Source of the DNA: the human T2T-CHM13v2.0 reference genome, Homo sapiens
Direction: 5' to 3' (one strand)
DNA: 64,000 nt
Assembly: GCF_009914755.1 (NCBI RefSeq)
Contig: NC_060933.1
How positions within the stretch are numbered: position 1 is the stretch's first letter; every line of letters starts with the position of its first letter. This document shows positions 6,419 to 52,169 of the stretch, piece by piece. Under the pieces are notes generated by a model. It ran no database searches. It saw only the letters and a program-made list of their open reading frames with translations, and had not been told where the DNA came from. A program made the translations under genes and the position numbers.

Positions 6419-6530
6419 TCATTCATATCCATATAATAAGTAAATATTCTACCAGCAGAGATTATTGTAGTCCCTACCCAGTAGGGTTGTTAGGAAGGCT
6501 ACATGAAGTAATGTGTATAAAATGCTTATA

Positions 6531-6608
6531 TGGTGCCTCTCCTGTATTAAGCACTCAACAAATGGTACTGTTACTACCAGGTAAAGTACAAGGCGTGCTG
6601 AAAATACA
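6531..6608 (+). repeat. 78 bp direct repeat, copy 1 (MIR end plus flank)
   Basis: 73/78 identical to 7655-7732. Confidence 0.9.
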
Positions 6609-7188: not shown

Positions 7189-7654
7189 TATTGAACCTCA
7201 TAAAACAGAATGCCTTTAGGAGATGTTTTCAAAAAAGAAACAGAAACTATACCAGGACAAGAAAAAGAGAAAGGGCAGAGTATTAAATTATTGCTCAATG
7301 AAGGCATTTGCTGTGAGGAACTAAAGAAATATGATCTAATCTTTTAAAAATAATATTTCTTTGTGATTATAAAAATTATAGATGTTCATTTTAGGACAAT
7401 TTTAGAATGCACAAAAATATAAAAAGTAAGAATCAGCAATAATCTCACTTCTTAGAGATCACCATTGATAACATTTTGGCATATTTCTTTCTATTGTTTA
7501 TTGTTTATGCGTGAACGCGCTCACATACACGTTGTTGTTTCTAGAATTGGCTATCTGTAGATTTCTATCCTGCCTTTTTGATTTAACATTATAGTGTGAC
7601 CATTCTCCTTTATCATTAAATATTCTCTAAAAAATGTTATTTTGTTGTTTTACG

Positions 7655-7732
7655 TGGTGCCTCTCATGTAGTAAACACTCAACAAAGGGTACTGTTATTA
7701 CCAGGTAAAGTACAAGGCGTGCTGAAAATACA
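7655..7732 (+). repeat. 78 bp direct repeat, copy 2 (within old L1-like sequence)
   Basis: 73/78 identical to 6531-6608. Confidence 0.9.
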
Positions 7733-15124: not shown

Positions 15125-16956
15125 GTGAGTCCCGGCCAGGGCTCTGGGAAGAGCCTGTCCTTCTGTAGCAGTGTCTGGGAGGTGAGAGTGGGATGCAGGA
15201 GGGCTAAAGTAGGCCCAGTAAGGATGGGCTTCCTGTATCCTCCTGTACCCAAGGAAGACCTCAGGGATAGTAGCCCAGAAACAGTAGGCGTGGGAAACTG
15301 GAAGGAGCAGGGCATTCTCTTGGCAGTTTCTGGGACTGTTCATTTCATTGGCCAGTGGAGGTGATGTAGGAGGTGAGGTTGCAGGATGGGCAGGGCCAGA
15401 TCTGGAAGAGCCTTGGAGGCCACCATAAGGGGTTGAGGCTTAAGTGCAAGCTTGATGGGGAGCTTTGCAGACAGCAAGGTCCAGGTCCCTCTGAGGAGCT
15501 CACTGAGCCAGCTGTGCGGGGAATGGCCAATGGCAGGGGAGGGGCTGGGTGAGGATGGAGGCAAGGAGGGTGGAGGGGCCTCTGTGGTGCCCACATGCAG
15601 CAGAGCCTTGGCTTGGCTGGGACTGGCAGTGCCAACGGAGTAGCATCAGCCCGTGAATCCTTGGGGCCTAGCTGAAGTGAGAGCAGCTAAGCTTAACCAA
15701 GGACAAGTGTCAAGTCTGTAACAGCAGGTAGAGCTGTGGGCTTAGTCACTACAGCCTGTCTCAAAGGGAAGCAACCCCTGCTGATGGGGCATCTGCTGCC
15801 TCAGATGCTGCACTTGCTCTGACTTCAAAACTGGCCTCTGTGTGTTCTAATAGGTGTGTGCATTGGGCTGTTTTCACAGACTCAATAGTGACTCACACAA
15901 GATAGAAACAGGCTTCTCACATCACAAATCTGGTGTGCTAGTCTAGAATGGGTGTGGTGGCTCCTTGGTGGATGGGGCCTCAGCTCCTTCTGCACCTGTT
16001 CCCACCTTCTCTAGGGTGCTCTGCTGCCTTGGTCCTCATGGACCAGGCTGGTTTTTCACCTCCTACTCACTCTGGTCAACCAGAAGACTTAAAGGGGAAG
16101 GAGAGCCACACCCTTCCTCCCGAGGGCACTGCTTGGAAGTTCTCCACACATCCCATTGAGCAGAGCGTGGTTGCCTGGCCACGTGTAGCTGCAAGGGAGG
16201 CTGGGAGCTGTGGCCTTTATCCTGCTGGCTGTGTGTTCAGTTACAGGTCACAGGGAGAATGGGTTTAAGGCACAAGGAGCAGTGTCTGTGACAGCGTGTA
16301 AGCCAGGCTGGGGTAAGCCAGGCTGGGGTTTGGTGCTGACTATAGCCTAGAAGGCATTGGGTTCTGGGGTCAGGGCACCTGGGTCTGAGACGATGATCCA
16401 GTTATGGCACCTTGGGCGAGTTGCTTGTCTTTTCTGAGCCTCAGTTTCTCACCTGTGAATGGGTCTGTCCACACCTATCTCAAGAGAATTATAGTGGGGA
16501 ATAAATGGGATCATGTATAGGACAGAACCTCATGTAGCAGCCGGCACATAGTAGGTGCTCATCTGCATTTCCTTTTTCCGTTTCCCCCCAGGGTCGTTTT
16601 AAATCTCTCCGTGTGGACATTGGTTCTGGGCCACACTGCACGGGCTTGAATCCCCCTCCCCCAACACCTAGCGACTAGACAACTTTGAGCAATGACCCTA
16701 ACCAGTTTCAAACTTGGCTTCAGCCTCTATAAAATGGGAATAATGATAGCTTCTACCTTGTAGGATCATCGTGAGCATTGAATGAGATGAGGAGGGTAAT
16801 GTGCTGGGTAGGTGCTTGGCATTTAGTGAGCTCTTGTTAGATGATAACTTCTATTTTTATAATGTTTAAATGTTTAAAAAGTTGCAAAATGAAAAAAACA
16901 GCATTTCACAAATATATTAATCTAAAGTCAAAGAGCGGATTATTTATTTTATAATA

Positions 16957-17357
16957 ATGGGATTAAATAGCTCCTCAGTAGGCAGGAATACAGTAGAAAT
17001 TCCTCTGACACATCTCAGTTCTCTCATAAAAATGTGAGGCAGTGTGGACCAAGCTTCCCTTCCTGTCATTGTGGGAACTTGGGAAAACAGGCATGATGCC
17101 CTGCTTTAACCTGTAATGAGTTAGGAAGTCCTGCCTTGCCTCCCCTCCCCACCATTTCTGCAGTGTCAGTGTAAGCTTGATGAAAGGGTGTCAGGCCCTC
17201 TCAGATGCAGGGAGACAGTTCAGGCAGACATAAAATTAATGCTGACAAGATCCATCACGAGTGCAGGGCAGCCATGCTGCACTCATGGGTTCACTGGGTA
17301 CAGTAGCTAATTAGCTTTGCTTGCAAAATTACCTGCCTTATTCCTGCCATCAACTTA
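16957..17357 (+). repeat. Dispersed ~400 bp duplicated element, copy A (intron 2)
   Basis: Aligns by eye with 44003-44392; 17202-17248 is identical to 44231-44277. Confidence 0.9.
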
Positions 17358-17367
17358 TTTGTGGTTA

Positions 17368-17804
<437 letters not shown>

Positions 17805-18450
17805 TCAACTTCCTTACTCTGTGACCTTGGGCAAGTTACTTAGCCTCTCCGGCCTCAGTGCCCTCATCTGTGAAATAGGGATAATACTATCACCTGCCTC
17901 AGAGGATTGTTATGAGGATCAGATAGGTTATCTAGAAATCACCTAGGTAGTACTTGGCACAGCAAGTCCTCTTTAGTTTTAGCTGCTATTATTATTGTTA
18001 CTACTACTGAAACTGTAAAGTACTCCTGAGAAAATTTCTATTAACATAACTACTGTTTTTATAAAAATTGCGATTAGATGGTTCACGTGTTTTTTGGTTT
18101 TTAAATGCTCATGAGTCAAAACTGTAAAGCATTTTTTGTAACAGCTTTATTGAAATATATTCACACACCATTCAATTCACCCATTTGAAGTGTACAATTC
18201 AACGTGCATGTGTTTAGATGGGGAGCAAATGGTGGTTCTGGAATTCCTCCCCCAGCCTCCTCCTGGCCTTCGGAGCACTTCCAACCTTGGTTCTGGGTGA
18301 GGTAAGGATGTCCCAGGTGGCAGAGCAAAGGAGGCTCCTGTCTATTTCATCTTCTGTTTGGGACAGGGAGGCCCAGAAGGCCCCGGGTTGGGATGAGGCG
18401 CTCCTCCGAGATTGTCACGGTGACCCCTGTTGCTTTGTTTGCCTCCCTAG

Positions 18451-19170: not shown

Positions 19171-20529
19171 TTATTATTCCTTTTTATCCGGGCTTGTTGC
19201 AGAAAACCGAGGAAGTATCATCAACCAAGAACATTTTAAAAAATCCTCAGTCAAATAGAATGGCACTCCTAAAGAATACACATTTTGATGTATTTCTTTC
19301 AAGCAGGGCTGACTTAACCCTTACACCCAGGAGGAACAATGCCTAGGGCCCATGAAACTGGAAGGAACCCAGATAAATGTTATGAATTTCTTTTAAAATC
19401 AGAAGGGAAAAATGAATATCATAATAATGGGTATGTAATAATGAATCTAGCATGGATTGTATTTGTCTTTATACCAGTATAGTCATAAAATATGCTTTTT
19501 AATATGTCTGGTTGTTATAGAGGAAGGGTCCCTGAAAGTCATAATGTAACCCTGTTCTCAAGGCCATTGTCCTTGCTGTTCCACGGCATCTCACTCTCAC
19601 CCTCCTACCTTCCCCCCTCAAGAAGCCACCATCTACTGGGGCCCACTTTTTGTTCCCTTCTGTCTCTTTCCTCCCCATGCTCTGCCTCGTCTCTCTGCCC
19701 TTTCTGTTTCTGCATCATAGAAGTCAGGAGCTGGGCTTGCCAACCAGAAGCTCCCCAGGTGGGAGAGGAAGGAAGGGATCTTTGCTTGGCCTCCCCGCTG
19801 TGGAGCAGGCAAAGGGCTGGAGGGGCAGGGTCTCTGCAGCTGGGGAACTGCTTCCCCGCAGATGCCAACTCCATGGTTGTTAGGGTTGTCTGAAAGAGCT
19901 GGGGACCCACTTGCCTTCCTTCCTGGGTGTGACCCAGCTGCCCCCTGCCCTGCCACTTCCTACTGTCCTGGCTTCTTGTCAGCTGCAGGTTCTATAGCTG
20001 TCTCTTTCTCCTCCTCAGCTCTGATGAGCTTTCCTAGCAGCAGATTCGAGGCTCCTCTGGCCTGTGATGGAGCTGGAGATTAGAGCACAGTTATGGCCGA
20101 GTGCTCCCTCTGGAACCCAGACCAATGGGCTCCCCTTCCTTCGTTCCCCCACTGCACTCATAGATGGCCACCTCTACACAGGTCTGAAATCATGGGGAGA
20201 GGACATTTCTTTCTCTGCAGCTGATGGATTAATGCTTTTAGAATTCCTCTTCATCCCACCCTTTGGACATGGGCCAGCCGCCTCCTTGCTGCATGCCTGT
20301 AGAAGAGGGGATTTTCCACCTCGGTTGTCTGTTAGAAATACCTGGGAAACTTTAAAAAATTTATATTTTAATTTTTAATTGTTGTGGGTAAATAGTAGGT
20401 GTATATATTTATGGGGTACATGAGATATTTTGATACAGGCATGCAATGCATAATAATCACATCAGAGGAAATGGGATATCCATCCCTTCAAGCATTTATC
20501 TTTGTGTTACTAATAATCCACTCATACTC

Positions 20530-20827
20530 TTTTTTTCTTTTTTTTTTAGACAGAGTCTCACTCTGTCACCCAGGCTGGAGGGCAGTGGCGTGATCTTGGC
20601 TCACTGCAACCTCCGCCTCCCAAGTTCAAGTGATTCTCCTGCCTCAGCTTCCTGAGTAGCTGGGACTACAGGTGCGTGCCACCGCACCTGGCTAGTTTTT
20701 GTATTTTTAGTAGGGACAGAGTTTCACGATGTTGGCCAGGCTGGTCTCGAACTCCTAACCTCAGTGATCCACCCACCTCAGCCTCCCAAAGTGCTGGGAT
20801 TACAGGCGTGAGCCACTGCACCTGGCC
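20530..20827 (-). mobile_element. Alu
   Basis: Full dimer, TSD tcatactctt. Confidence 0.95.
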
Positions 20828-20845
20828 CAGTCATACTCTTAGTAA

Positions 20846-20851
20846 TTTTTT

Positions 20852-20905
<54 letters not shown>

Positions 20906-21187
20906 GAGACAGAGTCTCGCTCTGTTGCCCAGGCTAGAGTACAGTAGGGTGATCTCGGCTCACTGCAGCCTCTGCCTCCCAGGTTCAAGTGATTCTCCTG
21001 GCTCAGCCTCCTGAGTAGCTGGGATTACAGGCATGCACTACCATGCCAGGCTAATTTTTGCATTTTTAGTAGAGATGGGGTTTCACCATGTTGGCCAGGC
21101 TGGTGTAAAACTCCTGACCTCAAGTGATTTGCCCGTCTCAGCCTTCCAAAGTGCTGGGATTACAGGCATGAACCACCACGCCCAGCC
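20846..21187 (-). mobile_element. Alu whose tail has become a (TAGA)n STR
   Basis: Dimer 20905-21187, TSD agtWattttt. Confidence 0.93.
20853..20904 (+). repeat. (TATC)13 microsatellite
   Basis: Perfect tetranucleotide run. Confidence 0.95.
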
Positions 21188-23470
21188 AGTTATTTTTAAA
21201 TGTACAATTAAATTATTTTTTTTTTTTACTATAGTCACTCTGTTGTGCTAGCAACTGGTACGTCTTATTCATTCTTTCTATTTTTTTGTACCCATTAACC
21301 ATCCCCACTCCCCCAACCAACTACCCTTCCCAGTCTCTGGTAACCATCCTTCTGCTCTCTGTCTCCATGAGTTCAATTGTTTTAAGTTTTAGCTCCCACA
21401 AATAAGTGAAAACATGCAAACTTTGTCTTTTTGTGCCTTGCTTATTTCACCTAACGTAATGACCTCCAGTTCCATCCATGTTGTTGCAAATGACAGCATC
21501 TCATTCTTTTTTACGGATGAATAGTACTCTATTGTGAGTATATGTACCACATATCCTTTATCCATTCATCTGTTGATGGACACTTCGGTTGCTTCCCAAT
21601 CTTGGTTATTGTGAATAGTGCTGCAACAAACATGAGAGTGCAGATATATTTTCGATACACTGACTTCCTTTCTTTTGGATATGTACGTAGGAGTAGAATT
21701 GCAGGATCATATGGTAGCTCTATTTTTAGTTTTTTGAGGAACCTTCAAACTGTTCTCCATAGAGGTTGTACTAATTTACATTCCCACCAACGGTGTGTGA
21801 GGGTTCAACCTGGGGAGCTTTTTAAACACACCAATGCCTGGTCCCATTTGGATCTAACTCTTGGGGCTGGGGCCTCGGCTTCTGCATGTTTCAAAAGCTC
21901 CCCAGGGGACTTTGGTGTGCACGAGCATTGGGACACATCAGACTGTGGACTCTCCCTAAGGTGGCCCCAGACAGGAGTGGTAACCCTTTCCATCCAGGGG
22001 CTTTTGGAAATGTGGGAGGGTATTCTTGGTTGTCATGTCAACCAGGTAGGGCTCCTGGCATTTTGTGTATCAGGGAGGCCAAGTATCCTGCAGATCAGCC
22101 CTGTTCAGTGGAGAATGGTTCTGGCCCAGATGCCAATAGCATCCCTGTGGGTCCTGCACATTCTCCAGCCACGACTGGGAGTCCTATACTCCAATGCTGG
22201 TACAGCATTCCCCTAGTTTTCCCCTCCTTGTAAAAATTAGGCTTTCTGTGGTTCCAGCCAGCTTGATCACAAGCCATCAGTTCCTGGGGGAGCTGGCCTT
22301 TGCCAGGGGCCAGCTAGAACTTGCCCAGCAGGTCTGATGTTGGCCCTTTCAACCTTTTAAATAATGCCCTCAATTGCTTTAAATAAGCGGATGTTGGTGG
22401 ATACCTAGTATGCAACTTCCTCAATTTGGGGAACTCACAGATCTAAGACCCTGTCTCACGCAACCTGTTCTGAACAGTGCAATTTCCCGATAGTTGTAAT
22501 TCTTACCCCAGAGTGGTATTTCTAATATCCCCTCTGACTTTCTGGTGTCATTCTAAGGACACCGAAAGCTCAAGTCTGGTTGATCTCTGTTGCACTGTCC
22601 TGTGTGGCAGGACTCTTAGGATTTTTAGGTCTCAAATTCCAGACAACGTCCCCCAAAATGTACTCAAGGAAATCTAGTGTTCACACGTGGTCTAGTCTCA
22701 GTCCATCTTTCCTGGTGTAGTGGCAAATGCAAAGAAACACGGCCTGGAAGCATGCTGAGGGATGGCCAGATTTGTAATAATGTGGAGAGAACCGTTGAAG
22801 CCAACACACAGGCTGATACCTGCAAAAGGAAATTATAGCATTTTTCACTATATGTAATATTTCACAATAACAAACATTAAAATAAAAAAATAGCAATAGT
22901 TTCAGGTTCTCTGCCAGCTATCTTAAAAACATTTTCCCAGGAAGTCCTCACATTAACCCTCTGAATGGATATTATAATTCCAGTGTTACCACTGAGGCAA
23001 TAGGCTCTGAAGTTAGGTGACTTGGCTAATGTCACACAACAAATAAATAGCAGGATTAGAATTTATATTCTAATTCCAAAGCTGACCCTTTGGTCTGGGT
23101 GCACCTTTGTTCTTAGGAGATAAGTATTTCTTGATGTTAAGGTGTTTCATTGTGATTAAACCTCTTGCACTTCTGAGAAATTGAAATCATAGAGCGTTTG
23201 GTCAGAATGTCCATGGATAGAATCAGAGCATATTAAAGTCATGGGACTTTTTGTTTTAAAGCCCTCCGTGGCCCCCAGATCTCCCCCATGGTGGTCACCG
23301 GCCAGGGCTCTGACACGGCTGCAGACACCTGGAATAAGAGAAGCAGGTCTTTCTCAGATGTTCCTCCCTCTTATTGGAAGGAAGACAAGAATTCACCCTT
23401 GAATTTCCCAATTGTCTTCCTGCTGCCCGTCTGCATAGGAGAGACGGATGGATGTCTTGGGTGCTTTCAG

Positions 23471-39813: not shown

Positions 39814-40418
39814 TTGTATTTTCTTATGTAGGCCTAAAAACCTCTGAAATGTCATTTCTTGGATTCTACAAAACATGAGTTTGGATTTTTTTGAATGAAA
39901 AAAGTTCCATTTAGTGAACAGCACATCACAAAGGTTTTTCACTGATGTTGTTATTCACTCTGCCTGTTTGCTGCTCAGCCATGATTAAGTTCGTTGCATA
40001 CAGCTTATAACAGAGAGGCAGAGGGAAAAGATAAACACCAGGCCTGAGAGAGAGACTTGCTGAGATAATTGAGCAAGGGCTGGCAGAAAGGAGAGAAGCA
40101 GGAGGTCATTAAAGAAGACCATCGTCTTTGGGGTTTGGGAATTGGCACAAGGCATATAACCCACTGATTCTCTGATGTGTGACAGGTGAGTAGCTCAGGC
40201 CAAGTGACTGGCTTCCTCATCCATCTGGTCTGTGGCTGAGCTGGGACTACAGCCAAGTTTCCACACTCTGTTTAAATACCTAAGAGAAAGAGATCACCCT
40301 GCACGGAATGAGTTGACCTAAGAGGAGTGAAAGAGATAAACAAAGGATCTTTGTTCCTGATTTCCCTGAAGGAAGCCAAATGCAATAGGGAGATGTAGGG
40401 TATGACACATGCCCAGAG

Positions 40419-40437
40419 CAGCCAGCAGGTGGCACCA
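40419..40437 (+). promoter_or_regulatory. Candidate CTCF binding site
   Basis: CAGCCAGCAGGTGGCACCA matches CCASYAGRKGGCRS at every position; local CpG retention. Confidence 0.65.
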
Positions 40438-40650
40438 TCGGTCCTGTGAGAGGCAAGCGGGACGCAGCCTGTACAAGCCTGGTGCTGTGTCCCCGGGACA
40501 GTCCTGAGTTGCTGCGTTACACGGAAGACACTTACCCCTCAATAAATATTTCTGAAATGGTAAAAATCAGACCCTGATCTCTTTAAAACATGTCTTTAGG
40601 AAAAAGAGACTTTTCTGATGACTTGCCTGTCATTCTGTTATCTTTTGTAG

Positions 40651-42996: not shown

Positions 42997-43281
42997 GGAC
43001 CAATCAGATGGGAGCGATGAAGATACACGTGGAATTGATTAAAAGGTATCAATTTGTGTCTCAGGCTCTTTTTGACATACATTCTCCACTCAGATCCTGT
43101 CAAGGACCAGTTTAACATTTACCCAGAAACAACTTGGCTTGGGCTGGCTCGAATCCATCTGATGCAACTTAACTTATCTGTACTTCAGTTTCTTCATTGG
43201 AAAAACAGGGATAATTAAACCAAGATATGGGATAGCTGTGAGGATTAAATAACACATAGCAGGTCAGGGCTTAGGCCCTGG

Positions 43282-43896
43282 TGTTACCAGAAAGGGATCT
43301 GGATCTTGGATTACGCACAAGAAAGAATTCAGGGTGAGTCCAAAGAGTAAAGTGAAAGCAAGTTTATTAGAGAAGTAAAGAAACAAGAATGGCTATTCCA
43401 TTCTTGGGGGTCCAGAGTACCCCCGAGGACTACTGGTGGGCTATTTCTGTAGTTATTTCTTGATTATATGCTAAACAAGGAGTGGATGATTCATGAGTTT
43501 TCTGAGAAAGGGGCGAGGACTTCCCAGAACTGAGGGCTCCTTCTCATAGACCATATAGAGTAACTTCTTAGCATTGCCATGGCACTTGTAAACTGTCATG
43601 GTGCTGGGGGGAGTGTCTTTAGCAGGTGAATGCATTATAATTAATGTATAATAAGCAGTGAGGACCACCAGAGGTTGCTTTCATCCCATCTTGGTTTTGG
43701 TGGGTTTTGGCTGGCTTCTTTACTGCATCCTGTCTTATCAGCGGGTTCTTTGTGACGTGTATCTTCTGCTGACCTTCTATCTCATCCTGTGACTAAGAAT
43801 GCCTAACCTCCTGGGAATGCAGCCCAGCAGGTCTCAGCCTCATTTTACCCAGCCCCTGTTCAAGATGGAGTTACTGTGGTTTGAACACCCCTGACA
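43282..43896 (-). mobile_element. ERV1 solo LTR, MER41B-like
   Basis: Reverse complement begins TGTCAGGGGTGTTCAAACCACAGTAACTCCATCTTGAA and ends GGTAACA; perfect CTGG TSD; retains the STAT-motif segment. Confidence 0.88.
43500..43529. promoter_or_regulatory. Tandem GAS (STAT) motifs in MER41B
   Basis: TTCTGAGAA (43500-43508) and TTCCCAGAA (43521-43529), both TTCN3GAA. Confidence 0.6.
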
Positions 43897-44002
43897 CTGG
43901 CCCACAGTATGGGCTTATTAAATATCAGCTTCTATTTTCAGAAATGTACTTTAATATTTATTCAAAAATAAATATTAAGTAGTTTAGCTTTTTAAAATCT
44001 TT

Positions 44003-44392
44003 ATGGGATTAAACAGCTCTTTAGCAGGCAGGAATAGCTTTCGACACAGCTCAGTTCTCATAAATGTGAGGCAGTGTGGGCCAAGCTTCCCTTCCTACCG
44101 CTGTGGGAACTTGTGAAAACAGACGCAATGCCCCCCCTCAACCCATGAGTTAGGAAGTCCTACCCTGTCTCCCCTCCCCACCGTTTCTGTCACATCAGTG
44201 TGAGCTTGATGAAGGGGTGTTGGGCCCTCCCAGATGCAGGGAGACAGTTCAGGCAGACATAAAATTAATGCTGACAAAATCCATCAAGAGTGCAGGGAGG
44301 CTGCAGAGGTTGCATGTCTGGAGAGTCTGCCGAGCATGGCAGCTAATTAGTTTTGCTTGAGAAGTCGCCCCTCTAACTCCTGCATCCGCTTA
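44003..44392 (+). repeat. Dispersed ~400 bp duplicated element, copy B (downstream of gene)
   Basis: Same orientation as copy A, offset ~27.0 kb. Confidence 0.9.
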
Positions 44393-45092
44393 CATTCGGT
44401 CATTTTTAGGCTCGAAAACAGTCAATATAAAATAGAAATCATATTTTGGGGGGTGTCAAGGGAAATCTTTACACAGACTGGGAGGGAATTTACAACATCT
44501 CGAGAAAACGTTCTCTTCACCGATGGGTGAAGAGCCTGAGAAAAAGCCCATAGGGATGTGAGGGAATTCACACATCTATTCACTGTACCCGAGTGGGTTC
44601 CCACCTGCCCCCACCTGCCCCCACCTGCCTCCCTGGCAGGTGTGAATCCAGGGCTGATGTGTGGAGTTGGAGTCCTGGGGGCCAGCCCCAGCTGTGGCAG
44701 ATTGGCAGATTGTTTCGCCTTCTAGGACTCTGTTGTAGTTTCCTCTAATTTGGTCTTGAGGTCTGTCTCAAGAGCATGGGTAAAAACTCTAGCCCTGCCC
44801 TGCCAGGGCTCTAGGGATTTGGTCATGAATGTTTATAGTGTGTCTTTCATGGGACACTTCATCCTGGCAGACAGCCTAATGCCTGGGTGTCCAACCCATG
44901 ACAGGGTGTTCCTCTCACAGAAAACTTGGTTTATACTGGAAGATGCCTTTGTGGCTCTTGTCTGACCTGCTCAGTTTATTCCTACCAAGACAGCCCCTCT
45001 CCAGGAGAGCCCTGACGGGGGAAGAAGGTAGGTTTGGGTGTGTTGGTCAGGTGAGACACAGAAGAGGCAACTCAGCAAAACACATGAAATAA

Positions 45093-49274: not shown

Positions 49275-49466
49275 TCACTCACATTTTACTCTAAGCATCA
49301 AGGAGAAACCAAGCAGCATTGGCAACATTGGATGAAAATCTCCTTTTGCTGCACAACAAAGCTCATCCCTTACTTCCACACACTGTACTTAAAATAAATA
49401 ATAAATAAATAAATGGTTCATCTTTTATAAGTTCTGCTTTCCACATAACTTCAGGAGACAATTTTT

Positions 49467-51012
<1,546 letters not shown>

Positions 51013-51362: not shown

Positions 51363-52169
51363 CAACCATCCACATTTCTACAAGGAGATGCAGGCTTTAT
51401 CATGCTCCTCAAAATCCCTCCACCCTTCTCCATTTTAGGTATTTGTTACAGCAACATCTCACTTCCAGGCACCGAAATCTGTATTAGTTTTCTATGGCTA
51501 CGCAGCAGCTGAAAATACCCATTTATTATCTCACAGTTCCTGTAGGTCAGAAATCAGGGCTTGCTTGGCTCAACTGGGGATCGCAGCTTTGGATCTTGCA
51601 GGCTGAAATCAGGGTGTTGGCTGGGACTGGTGTCTCATCTGAGCCTTGGTGTCTTCTTGCAAGCTCACTGTTTTTTGGCAAAATTCATTCCTTGTGGTTG
51701 TAGGACTGAGAACCTCAGCTCCTAGAGGCCACCTGCTGAGAGTGTCTGCTGCTGGCTTTGAAGAAGTGAGCTGCCACGTTGTCACAGGGCCACGTGCCTT
51801 CGACCTGAGTGTGGCCTCTAGGCGCTCAGAGTGGCCAAGTTCATGCTGAATTCCTGGAAATGGAGACTCATCAGTGGGATTATTATGTTAATAGCAATGT
51901 AGACAATGCAGGTGCATTGGAAACTTGGGCTCAGGAGCAACCATCGCTGTCATCAGATATTTACTTACCATTCAAGAAGATTCTGTTTTGAAAATTTCCA
52001 AAAATTCTCAAGAAATGGAATCTTTGTCATGTGACAGGCCCTTTACATGTCAGTTGGAAAGGATGTGTTTTATTTCTAGGGGCCAATTCTGGATTTCTTT
52101 ATAGGTTGAATATCTGTTCAACTTAAATTTCCTTTGCTAACCTACTTTCCTTTTCTCCTCCTATTAAAA

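What the first reader, a model, noticed from the sequence alone, without database searches (positions are those of the whole stretch)
16957..17357. Unexplained ~400 bp element duplicated 27 kb away (copy B 44003-44392) with a 47 bp invariant core: candidate twin (shadow) enhancers bracketing exons 3-10
Seen: intron 2 (16957-17357) and the region ~2.2 kb past the poly(A) site (44003-44392) align in the same orientation. Conservation is blocky. CAGATGCAGGGAGACAGTTCAGGCAGACATAAAATTAATGCTGACAA is identical over 47 bp (17202-17248 vs 44231-44277) and extends to 67 bp with 2 mismatches. 17031-17064 vs 44063-44096 has 1 mismatch in 34. ATGAGTTAGGAAGTCCT is identical in both. Spacers and ends are much more diverged and carry indels. 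I do not recognise it as a TE family, and see no TSD or TIR. Both copies follow a MIR tail, so the duplicated unit may be longer, with MER41B inserted later into copy B's MIR. Established motif knowledge: the conserved blocks contain CATAAA (CDX/posterior HOX), AT-rich + TGCTGAC (small MAF), AGGAAGT (ETS, e.g. ELF3/EHF), an AP-1-like TGAGTTA, CCCCTCCCC (KLF/SP), an E-box CAGATG and TAATTA. Inference: an old local duplication kept by purifying selection or gene conversion, acting as paired enhancers, plausibly for gut-epithelial GALNT12 expression. A structured ncRNA is an alternative.
Basis: partly seen in the sequence, partly recalled or inferred. Interest (0 to 1): 0.8.

Follow-up and report, generated by a model that had tools for sequence, protein, structure and literature searches.

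The report
Two-copy local non-coding duplicate at GALNT12
A roughly 415-base non-coding stretch in GALNT12 intron 2 has one diverged twin 27 kb away and no other detectable copy in the human genome, and its patchy conservation hints at function, but an enhancer role could not be tested here.

Summary
Copy A (16957-17375) and copy B (44003-44410) align on the same strand: 312 of 396 ungapped columns are identical, with an exact 47-mer.

They are the only two copies found in the T2T genome. The same search found thousands of candidates for two real repeats in this window, at 79-87% identity. A repeat family of similar divergence is therefore unlikely. A much older family cannot be excluded.

Homology has sharp ends. 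The spacer to the upstream MIR, the MIR bodies and the 3' flank are no more alike than chance, so a longer duplicated unit is not supported.

Divergence is far from uniform: 53-94% identity by segment, chi-square p = 2e-7. K2P is 0.16 in the centre and 0.64 in the 3' third. This points to selection or gene conversion.

There is no support for a structured RNA, a coding exon or a larger tandem duplication.

Enhancer activity, cross-species constraint and target gene could not be tested. Duplication-born redundant enhancers are already described as common. Modest interest.

The parts
16957..17375 (+). Copy A of the paralogous non-coding unit, in GALNT12 intron 2
   Evidence: Pairs with 44003-44410. 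The 5' limit is set by a spacer with no similarity and the 3' limit by a flank with no similarity.
44003..44410 (+). Copy B, about 2.2 kb past the GALNT12 poly(A) site
   Evidence: The reciprocal genome search finds only A and B. Alignment.
17202..17248 (+). 47-bp invariant core, copy A
   Evidence: Exact match to B. Only 2 places in the genome at 3 or fewer mismatches; reversed-pattern control 0.
44231..44277 (+). 47-bp invariant core, copy B
17030..17064 (+). Conserved block of 34 of 35 identical bases (B: 44062-44096)
   Evidence: Exact runs of 18 and 16 bases split by one mismatch. A 25-mer from it at 3 or fewer mismatches finds A, B and two chr20 places that do not extend.
17116..17153 (+). 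Conserved blocks: an exact 17-mer (17116-17132) and an exact 14-mer (17140-17153). B: 44145-44161 and 44169-44182
17257..17305 (+). Least alignable segment within the unit: 26 of 49 identical, plus a 7-column gap (B: 44286-44341)
17305..17375 (+). 3' third: homologous but much more diverged, 48 of 69 identical
   Evidence: Local alignment score 25.5 against a shuffle mean of 8.1; 0 of 2000 shuffles reach it. Segment table.
16668..16836 (+). MIR upstream of copy A. By my reading of the sequence it runs about 16610-16862. Not shown to be part of the duplicated unit
   Evidence: nhmmer MIR-profile hit, E = 4e-32. Identity to B's MIR is 51%, rank 6 of 28 pairs.
43133..43281 (+). MIR upstream of copy B, 5' part. 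Its tail resumes at 43897-43940
   Evidence: nhmmer hit 43133-43284, E = 8e-26. Tail read.
43282..43896 (+). 615-bp interspersed-repeat insert that splits B's MIR, flanked by the 4-base direct repeat CTGG. Not part of the unit
   Evidence: 3969 first-look candidates in the genome, 40 scored at 79-87% identity, matching from query base 20 onward. The direct repeat was read. The family name was not tested.
17392..17690 (+). Alu directly 3' of copy A. Not part of the unit
   Evidence: Rfam Metazoa_SRP matches at 17393-17509 and 17528-17675. Many Alu-like pairings. The hub's mask covers 17365-17726.

Best explanation
A and B are the two surviving copies of a short (about 415 bp) non-coding segment that was copied locally, 27 kb away and in the same orientation. 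Since then the unit has not evolved neutrally as a whole. A central part of about 300 bp, and above all a core of about 67 bp, has changed several-fold less than the unit's own 3' third and 5' edge. The most likely reason is purifying selection on a set of short protein-binding blocks kept in both copies. That would make them a pair of paralogous cis-regulatory modules, that is, duplication-born redundant enhancers or similar elements.

Shown: two copies only at the search's sensitivity; sharp ends of homology; non-uniform divergence; no RNA-structure or coding signal.

Inferred: selection rather than gene conversion; regulatory function; any link to GALNT12 or to gut epithelium.
For: Copy number:
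- Searches find only A and B. One search used the 5' half without the core and still recovered B at 78%.
- Positive controls with the same tool: a repeat at 21387-21796 gave 10453 candidates. The 615-bp insert gave 3969 candidates at 79-87% identity.
- Inside the window each copy matches only the other.

Bounded unit:
- The spacer (p = 0.55) and the 3' flank (p = 0.93) are not alike. The 3' third is alike (0 of 2000 shuffles).

Mosaic divergence:
- Segment identities are 80, 89, 62, 85, 94, 53 and 70%. Chi-square p = 2e-7, or 4e-4 without the worst segment.
- K2P is 0.162 in the centre and 0.637 in the 3' third.
- Run-of-47 permutation p = 0.0011 within the central part.
- The centre is about as diverged as copies of the insert family (79-87%). 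The 3' third (59% ungapped by the K2P proportions; 70% for 17306-17375) lies at or above the top of the MIR-MIR range (40-56%). No single neutral age fits both.

Motifs and literature:
- All seven motif strings are kept at homologous places.
- Duplication is a documented route to redundant enhancers (PMC13345019, abstract and section 11 read).
Against: - No cross-species, chromatin, reporter or population data could be consulted, so constraint is inferred from one pairwise comparison only.
- Gene conversion could give the same mosaic.
- Part of the heterogeneity may come from one complex mutation in 17257-17305.
- The motif strings were picked after the fact.
- Neither copy overlaps a RefSeq functional element in the hub's table (enhancer 40346-40640, silencer 51644-51854).
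- A published RAMPAGE TSS catalogue lists no peak at either copy. Its only peak between hg38 chr9:98,807,593 and 98,943,469 is at 98,833,416-494. The mapping to the window uses a recalled hg38 gene start.
- Copy A has lost nearly all CpGs (1, against 8 in B). That shows no special protection of A.
- A second small two-copy local duplicate lies in the same window, so such pairs need not be functional.
Confidence: 0.4

Rival explanations
1. Gene conversion. An old local duplicate has no function, and its central part was homogenised one or more times by non-allelic gene conversion between the two same-orientation copies. The 47-67-bp core is the latest tract.
For: Same chromosome, same orientation, 27 kb apart. 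The identity pattern is nested: 94-97% in the core, 85-89% around it, 53-70% at the edges. Transitions dominate the central part (P = 0.117, Q = 0.024), as expected for a more recent split.
Against: Present identity (about 80%) is low for conversion to start (recalled knowledge of homology requirements, not tested). The conserved blocks are several and separated, not one tract. There is only a weak GC asymmetry (A weak/B strong at 44 sites against 28 the other way).
Confidence: 0.2
2. Neutral relic. A short templated or repair-mediated local copy made tens of millions of years ago, with no function. The unevenness comes from local mutation-rate differences, CpG decay and one or two complex indel events.
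For: Another small two-copy local duplicate exists in the same window (6526-6608 / 7650-7732). The core has no CpG. The segment 17257-17305 looks like a complex event. There is no functional annotation at either copy (hub table).
Against: Permutation and chi-square tests reject uniform divergence even without the worst segment (p = 4e-4) and within the central part (p = 0.001).
Confidence: 0.25
3. Two members of an ancient, low-copy interspersed repeat family that the tools here cannot see, whether exapted or not.
For: The unit has discrete ends and unrelated flanks. There is a 10-base perfect inverted repeat near both ends of A (16981-16990 / 17339-17348). Both copies abut AT-rich sequence beside a MIR tail, a common insertion target (recalled). 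The genome search misses old repeats: the MIR control found only 2 other places, and the 3' third did not find B.
Against: No third copy was found. Two independent old insertions would be about as alike as MIR pairs (40-56%), not 79-82%. Landing 27 kb apart in the same orientation would be a coincidence. No target-site duplication can be read. The inverted repeat is internal and only partly kept in B. A MIR profile does not match the unit (best E = 0.21).
Confidence: 0.1
4. A structured non-coding RNA gene, or a coding exon or exon relic, present in two copies.
For: One stop-free frame of 61 codons in A and 68 in B is shared at homologous positions.
Against: RNA: Rfam gives nothing apart from Alu-related matches and one chance-level match (NEAT1_2, E = 0.53, 17282-17399) at A, and nothing at B. 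Folding z-scores are -0.52, -0.15, -1.51 and 0.02, and the predicted structures differ between copies. Coding: pN/pS in the open frame is 0.45, inside the range of the other five frames (0.38-0.96). No Pfam match for 4 of 4 ORFs. Gap lengths are 10, 4, 3, 1 and 7.
Confidence: 0.04

Closest known systems
Duplication-born redundant ('shadow') enhancers (Ness, Kosztyo and Wunderlich, PMC13345019; abstract and section 11 read)
   Same: Two sequence-homologous non-coding elements in one locus, tens of kb apart, with recognisable homology confined to the element body. That paper reports 31.5% of mouse enhancer-hit pairs without detectable flank homology.
   Different: Those sets are defined by measured enhancer activity on a shared target gene. 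Here no activity, target or tissue is known.
Regulatory-element families made by segmental duplication in the human T2T genome (Weaver and Lowe, 10.64898/2025.12.03.692127; abstract only)
   Same: Families of non-coding elements defined by sequence similarity within the same assembly.
   Different: Those arise from large, mostly recent segmental duplications. This unit is about 415 bp, about 79% identical, and has no homologous flanks.
Transposon-derived shadow enhancer pairs (Barth, Li and Taher, 10.1101/703314; abstract only)
   Same: Paired redundant elements near one gene.
   Different: According to that abstract, those partners are independent exaptations of different transposon types. 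Here the two copies are homologous to each other, and no transposon family was detected.
Non-allelic (interlocus) gene conversion between dispersed duplicates (recalled general knowledge; no paper read)
   Same: Produces patches of near-identity inside otherwise diverged paralogues on one chromosome.
   Different: It usually acts on longer and more similar duplicates. It cannot be told from selection without orthologues.

Membership tests
Interspersed repeat / transposable-element family | Many dispersed copies in the genome | tested here: not met
   Only A and B were found. The same search returns 10453 and 3969 candidates for two real repeats. Caveat: copies below roughly 75% identity are missed.
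Interspersed repeat / transposable-element family | Terminal hallmarks: target-site duplication, terminal inverted repeats or LTR ends, or a poly(A) tail | tested here: inconclusive
   No target-site duplication can be read at the ends. The only notable inverted repeat is internal (16981-16990 / 17339-17348) and is degraded in B. The flanks are AT-rich but not alike.
Interspersed repeat / transposable-element family | Match to a curated repeat library (Dfam/Repbase) | not testable with these tools
   No repeat library is available. A MIR profile built from the window does not match the unit (best E = 0.21).
Duplication-born redundant (shadow) enhancer pair | Two homologous elements within one regulatory landscape | tested here: met
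   same strand, 27 kb apart, one in GALNT12 intron 2 and one 2.2 kb past its poly(A) site.
Duplication-born redundant (shadow) enhancer pair | Each element has enhancer activity or enhancer chromatin | not testable with these tools
   No chromatin or reporter data. No RefSeq functional element overlaps either copy (hub table). No RAMPAGE peak at either copy, which does not test enhancer activity.
Duplication-born redundant (shadow) enhancer pair | Same target gene and overlapping expression pattern | not testable with these tools
   No data.
Conserved non-coding element under purifying selection | Slower substitution than neutral sequence of the same age | tested here: inconclusive
   Within the pair, K2P is 0.16 in the centre and 0.64 in the 3' third, and the core has 2 changes in 67. 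There is no independent neutral reference and no orthologues.
Segmental duplication (conventional definition, recalled: at least 1 kb and at least 90% identity) | Length and identity thresholds | tested here: not met
   About 415 bp, 78.8% ungapped identity. No further collinear low-copy homology. No relic GALNT12 exons downstream (best tblastn E = 2.5).
Structured RNA family | Rfam match, or a fold more stable than shuffles and shared by the copies | tested here: not met

The most novel reading that the evidence does not exclude
The duplication is as old as the MIR elements around it (early mammals). Both copies have been held by purifying selection ever since, as sequence-homologous, redundant cis-regulatory modules bracketing GALNT12 exons 3-10. 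The 67-bp core would be a shared composite binding platform. That would be a rare case in which the common ancestry of a mammalian shadow-enhancer pair is still legible after more than 100 million years.
Probability: 0.2. Interest if true: 0.5.

Novelty: new member of a known kind. Interest (0 to 1): 0.3.

Why it matters
If both copies are constrained and active, the locus gives a compact natural test of enhancer redundancy. There would be two homologous modules with a small set of shared blocks, each of which can be deleted singly or together. The gene, GALNT12, has been linked to colorectal-cancer predisposition (listing titles only; not read further).

If they are neutral, the pair is one more small local duplicate. 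It would then be a useful warning that long identical runs between old paralogues need an outgroup before selection is invoked.

Tried and rejected
- Longer duplicated unit including the MIR: rejected. MIR bodies are 51% alike, rank 6 of 28 pairs. Spacer p = 0.55 and 3' flank p = 0.93.
- Large 27-kb tandem duplication with decayed exons: no relic GALNT12 exon downstream of B (tblastn best E = 2.5; exon 3 DNA best E = 3.4). The collinear-looking pair 21387-21796 / 50471-50867 is a high-copy repeat.
- Third copies: two 3-mismatch matches to a 25-mer on chr20 do not extend beyond 23-26 bases.
- Structured RNA: rejected.
- Coding exon: rejected.
- Cross-species evidence from stray host DNA in microbial and viral collections: 0 matches in 3 scans. 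This says nothing about conservation.
- Literature on GALNT12 enhancers: 60 papers hold both terms and 15 were listed. None of the listed titles or abstract starts concerns these elements. Two were opened for passages; only the RAMPAGE paper was relevant, and its peak is elsewhere.
- CpG and GC asymmetry between copies: weak (44 against 28 sites) and left uninterpreted.
- MIR control for search sensitivity: ambiguous, because the tool skips very common words.

Full report
**Observation.**
- blastn pairs 16904-17375 with 43936-44410: 73.8% identity over 493 columns including gaps, E about 1e-82.
- The whole-genome search reports 82% identity over 16957-17268 / 44003-44297.
- In a MAFFT alignment of the unit, 312 of 421 columns are identical, or 312 of 396 ungapped columns (78.8%). 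Gaps are 7 columns in A and 10, 4, 3 and 1 in B.
- The 47-mer at 17202-17248 is identical at 44231-44277.
- The best 67-column window has 65 identities.
- 17030-17064 differs at one base, and the 17-mer at 17116-17132 is exact.

**Copy number.**
- Whole-genome DNA searches with A and with B each return only A and B, with 2 first-look candidates each.
- The 47-mer with up to 3 mismatches occurs at 2 places. The reversed-pattern control gives 0.
- The 5' half of A, which lacks the long core, still recovers B at 78% and nothing else.
- A 25-mer from the 17030-17064 block with up to 3 mismatches finds A, B and two places on chr20. Their similarity stops after 23-26 bases, so they are chance matches.

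The sensitivity of the search was checked in both directions.
- A true interspersed repeat at 21387-21796 gives 10453 candidates, with 40 scored at 85-87%.
- The 615-bp insert at 43282-43896 gives 3969 candidates, with 40 scored at 79-87%.
- So a family whose copies are as alike as A and B would have been seen.
- On the other hand, a MIR piece finds only two other places, and the diverged 3' part of A does not even find B.
- A very old family, with copies below roughly 75% identity, therefore cannot be excluded.
- Independent members of such a family would be about as alike as MIR pairs (40-56%), not 79-82%.

**Extent of the unit.**
Both copies do lie downstream of a + strand MIR (profile hits 16668-16836 and 43133-43284). 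B's MIR is split by the multi-copy 615-bp insert, which is flanked by the 4-base direct repeat CTGG (read).

The MIRs show no sign of having been copied together with the unit.
- Their identity is 51% over 198 shared columns, sixth of 28 pairs among 8 MIR copies of the window.
- The AT-rich spacer between the MIR tail and the unit is no more alike than shuffles (p = 0.55). Neither is the 3' flank, taken with A's Alu sliced out (p = 0.93).
- The unit's own 3' third is clearly homologous: 0 of 2000 shuffles reach its score.
- A self-comparison of the whole window finds no other collinear low-copy homology.
- No relic GALNT12 exon lies downstream of B.

The unit is therefore about 415 bp with sharp ends: 16957-17375 and 44003-44410.

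**Non-uniform divergence.**
- Identity by segment is 80, 89, 62, 85, 94, 53 and 70%. Chi-square p = 2e-7, or 4e-4 without the worst segment.
- A run of 47 identities is reached in 0 of 20000 permutations of the 421 columns. Within the best-conserved 307 columns, p = 0.0011.
- K2P distance is 0.162 in the central 290 ungapped sites and 0.637 in the 3' third.
- The central part is about as diverged as copies of the insert family are from one another. The 3' third lies at or just above the top of the MIR-MIR range.
- No single neutral age fits both. If the copy is old, the centre is too conserved. If it is young, the edges are too diverged.

One caveat applies. 17257-17305 may reflect a single complex mutation, and all of this rests on one pairwise comparison.

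**Alternatives tested.**
- Structured RNA:
  - Rfam gives nothing apart from Alu-related matches and one chance-level match (NEAT1_2, E = 0.53, 17282-17399) at A, and nothing at B.
  - Folds of the core region on both strands of both copies have z-scores of -0.52, -0.15, -1.51 and 0.02, and the predicted structures differ between copies.
- Coding:
  - One frame is open in both copies, 61 and 68 codons.
  - Its pN/pS (0.45) is within the range of the other five frames (0.38-0.96).
  - None of 4 ORFs matches Pfam, and the gaps are not multiples of three.
- MIR derivation of the unit: no significant profile match.
- Transposon hallmarks: no readable target-site duplication. A's only notable inverted repeat (10 bases, 16981-16990 / 17339-17348) is internal and only partly kept in B.

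**What it most likely is.**
It is a short local duplicate, unique to this locus, whose central blocks have been retained non-neutrally.
- I put about 0.4 on purifying selection on paralogous cis-regulatory modules.
- I put about 0.2 on gene conversion without function.
- I put about 0.25 on a neutral relic with mutational unevenness.
- I put about 0.1 on an undetected old repeat family.

The enhancer reading, the transcription-factor assignments, the gut-epithelial context and GALNT12 as target are not supported by any result here. They are not contradicted either. No vertebrate genomes, chromatin tracks or repeat library were available. Scans of the microbial and viral collections for stray host DNA found nothing.

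The only functional data reached were these:
- The hub's RefSeq elements do not overlap either copy.
- A RAMPAGE TSS catalogue (PMC8805725, Table S1B, searched) lists a single peak between hg38 chr9:98,807,593 and 98,943,469, at 98,833,416-494. By a recalled hg38 gene start, that is roughly window 25.1 kb and not at A or B.

**Comparison with what is known.**
- Redundant enhancers born by duplication are described as frequent. [quoted passage not shown]
- Families of regulatory elements made by segmental duplication are described for the same T2T assembly (10.64898/2025.12.03.692127, abstract).
- An earlier preprint argued that most human shadow pairs are independent transposon exaptations (10.1101/703314, abstract).

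If active, this pair would be a new member of a known kind. If not, it is an ordinary small local duplicate. Another one lies in the same window (6526-6608 / 7650-7732).

**Verdict.**
Interest is modest (0.3). The decisive step is a comparison of the orthologues of both copies across mammals, together with a Dfam search and chromatin data.

Noticed in passing
window 6526-6608 and 7650-7732: A second small two-copy local duplicate, in GALNT12 intron 1: + strand, 92% identity over 83 bp. The whole-genome search finds only these two places, at 94% over 78 bp.
   Followed up: partly
window 16409-16561, 16668-16836, 17822-17972: Three + strand MIR-profile hits cluster within 1.6 kb around copy A. 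There are 13 MIR hits in the 64-kb window in all.
   Followed up: partly
window about 25.1 kb (hg38 chr9:98,833,416-98,833,494; mapping uses a recalled hg38 gene start): A published unannotated intronic TSS of GALNT12 in K562 (RAMPAGE rPeak ZH38T0050003, PMC8805725). It would fall between exons 4 and 5, not at copy A.
   Followed up: partly
window 16981-16990 and 17339-17348: A perfect 10-base inverted repeat near both ends of copy A. The 3' arm is only partly kept in copy B. Chance expectation is about 0.08 by my own rough estimate.
   Followed up: no
window 16962-17375 vs 44008-44410: CpG asymmetry: copy A keeps 1 CpG and copy B keeps 8. At most of these sites A has TG or CA where B has CG. 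CpG observed/expected is 0.05 against 0.31.
   Followed up: partly
window 20348-21796 and 49460-50867: Pieces of a high-copy interspersed repeat (10453 genome candidates for 21387-21796), interrupted by Alus, lie in the same order and orientation at an offset of about 29 kb. They are less alike (77%) than each is to the best copies elsewhere (85-87%), so they look like independent insertions.
   Followed up: partly
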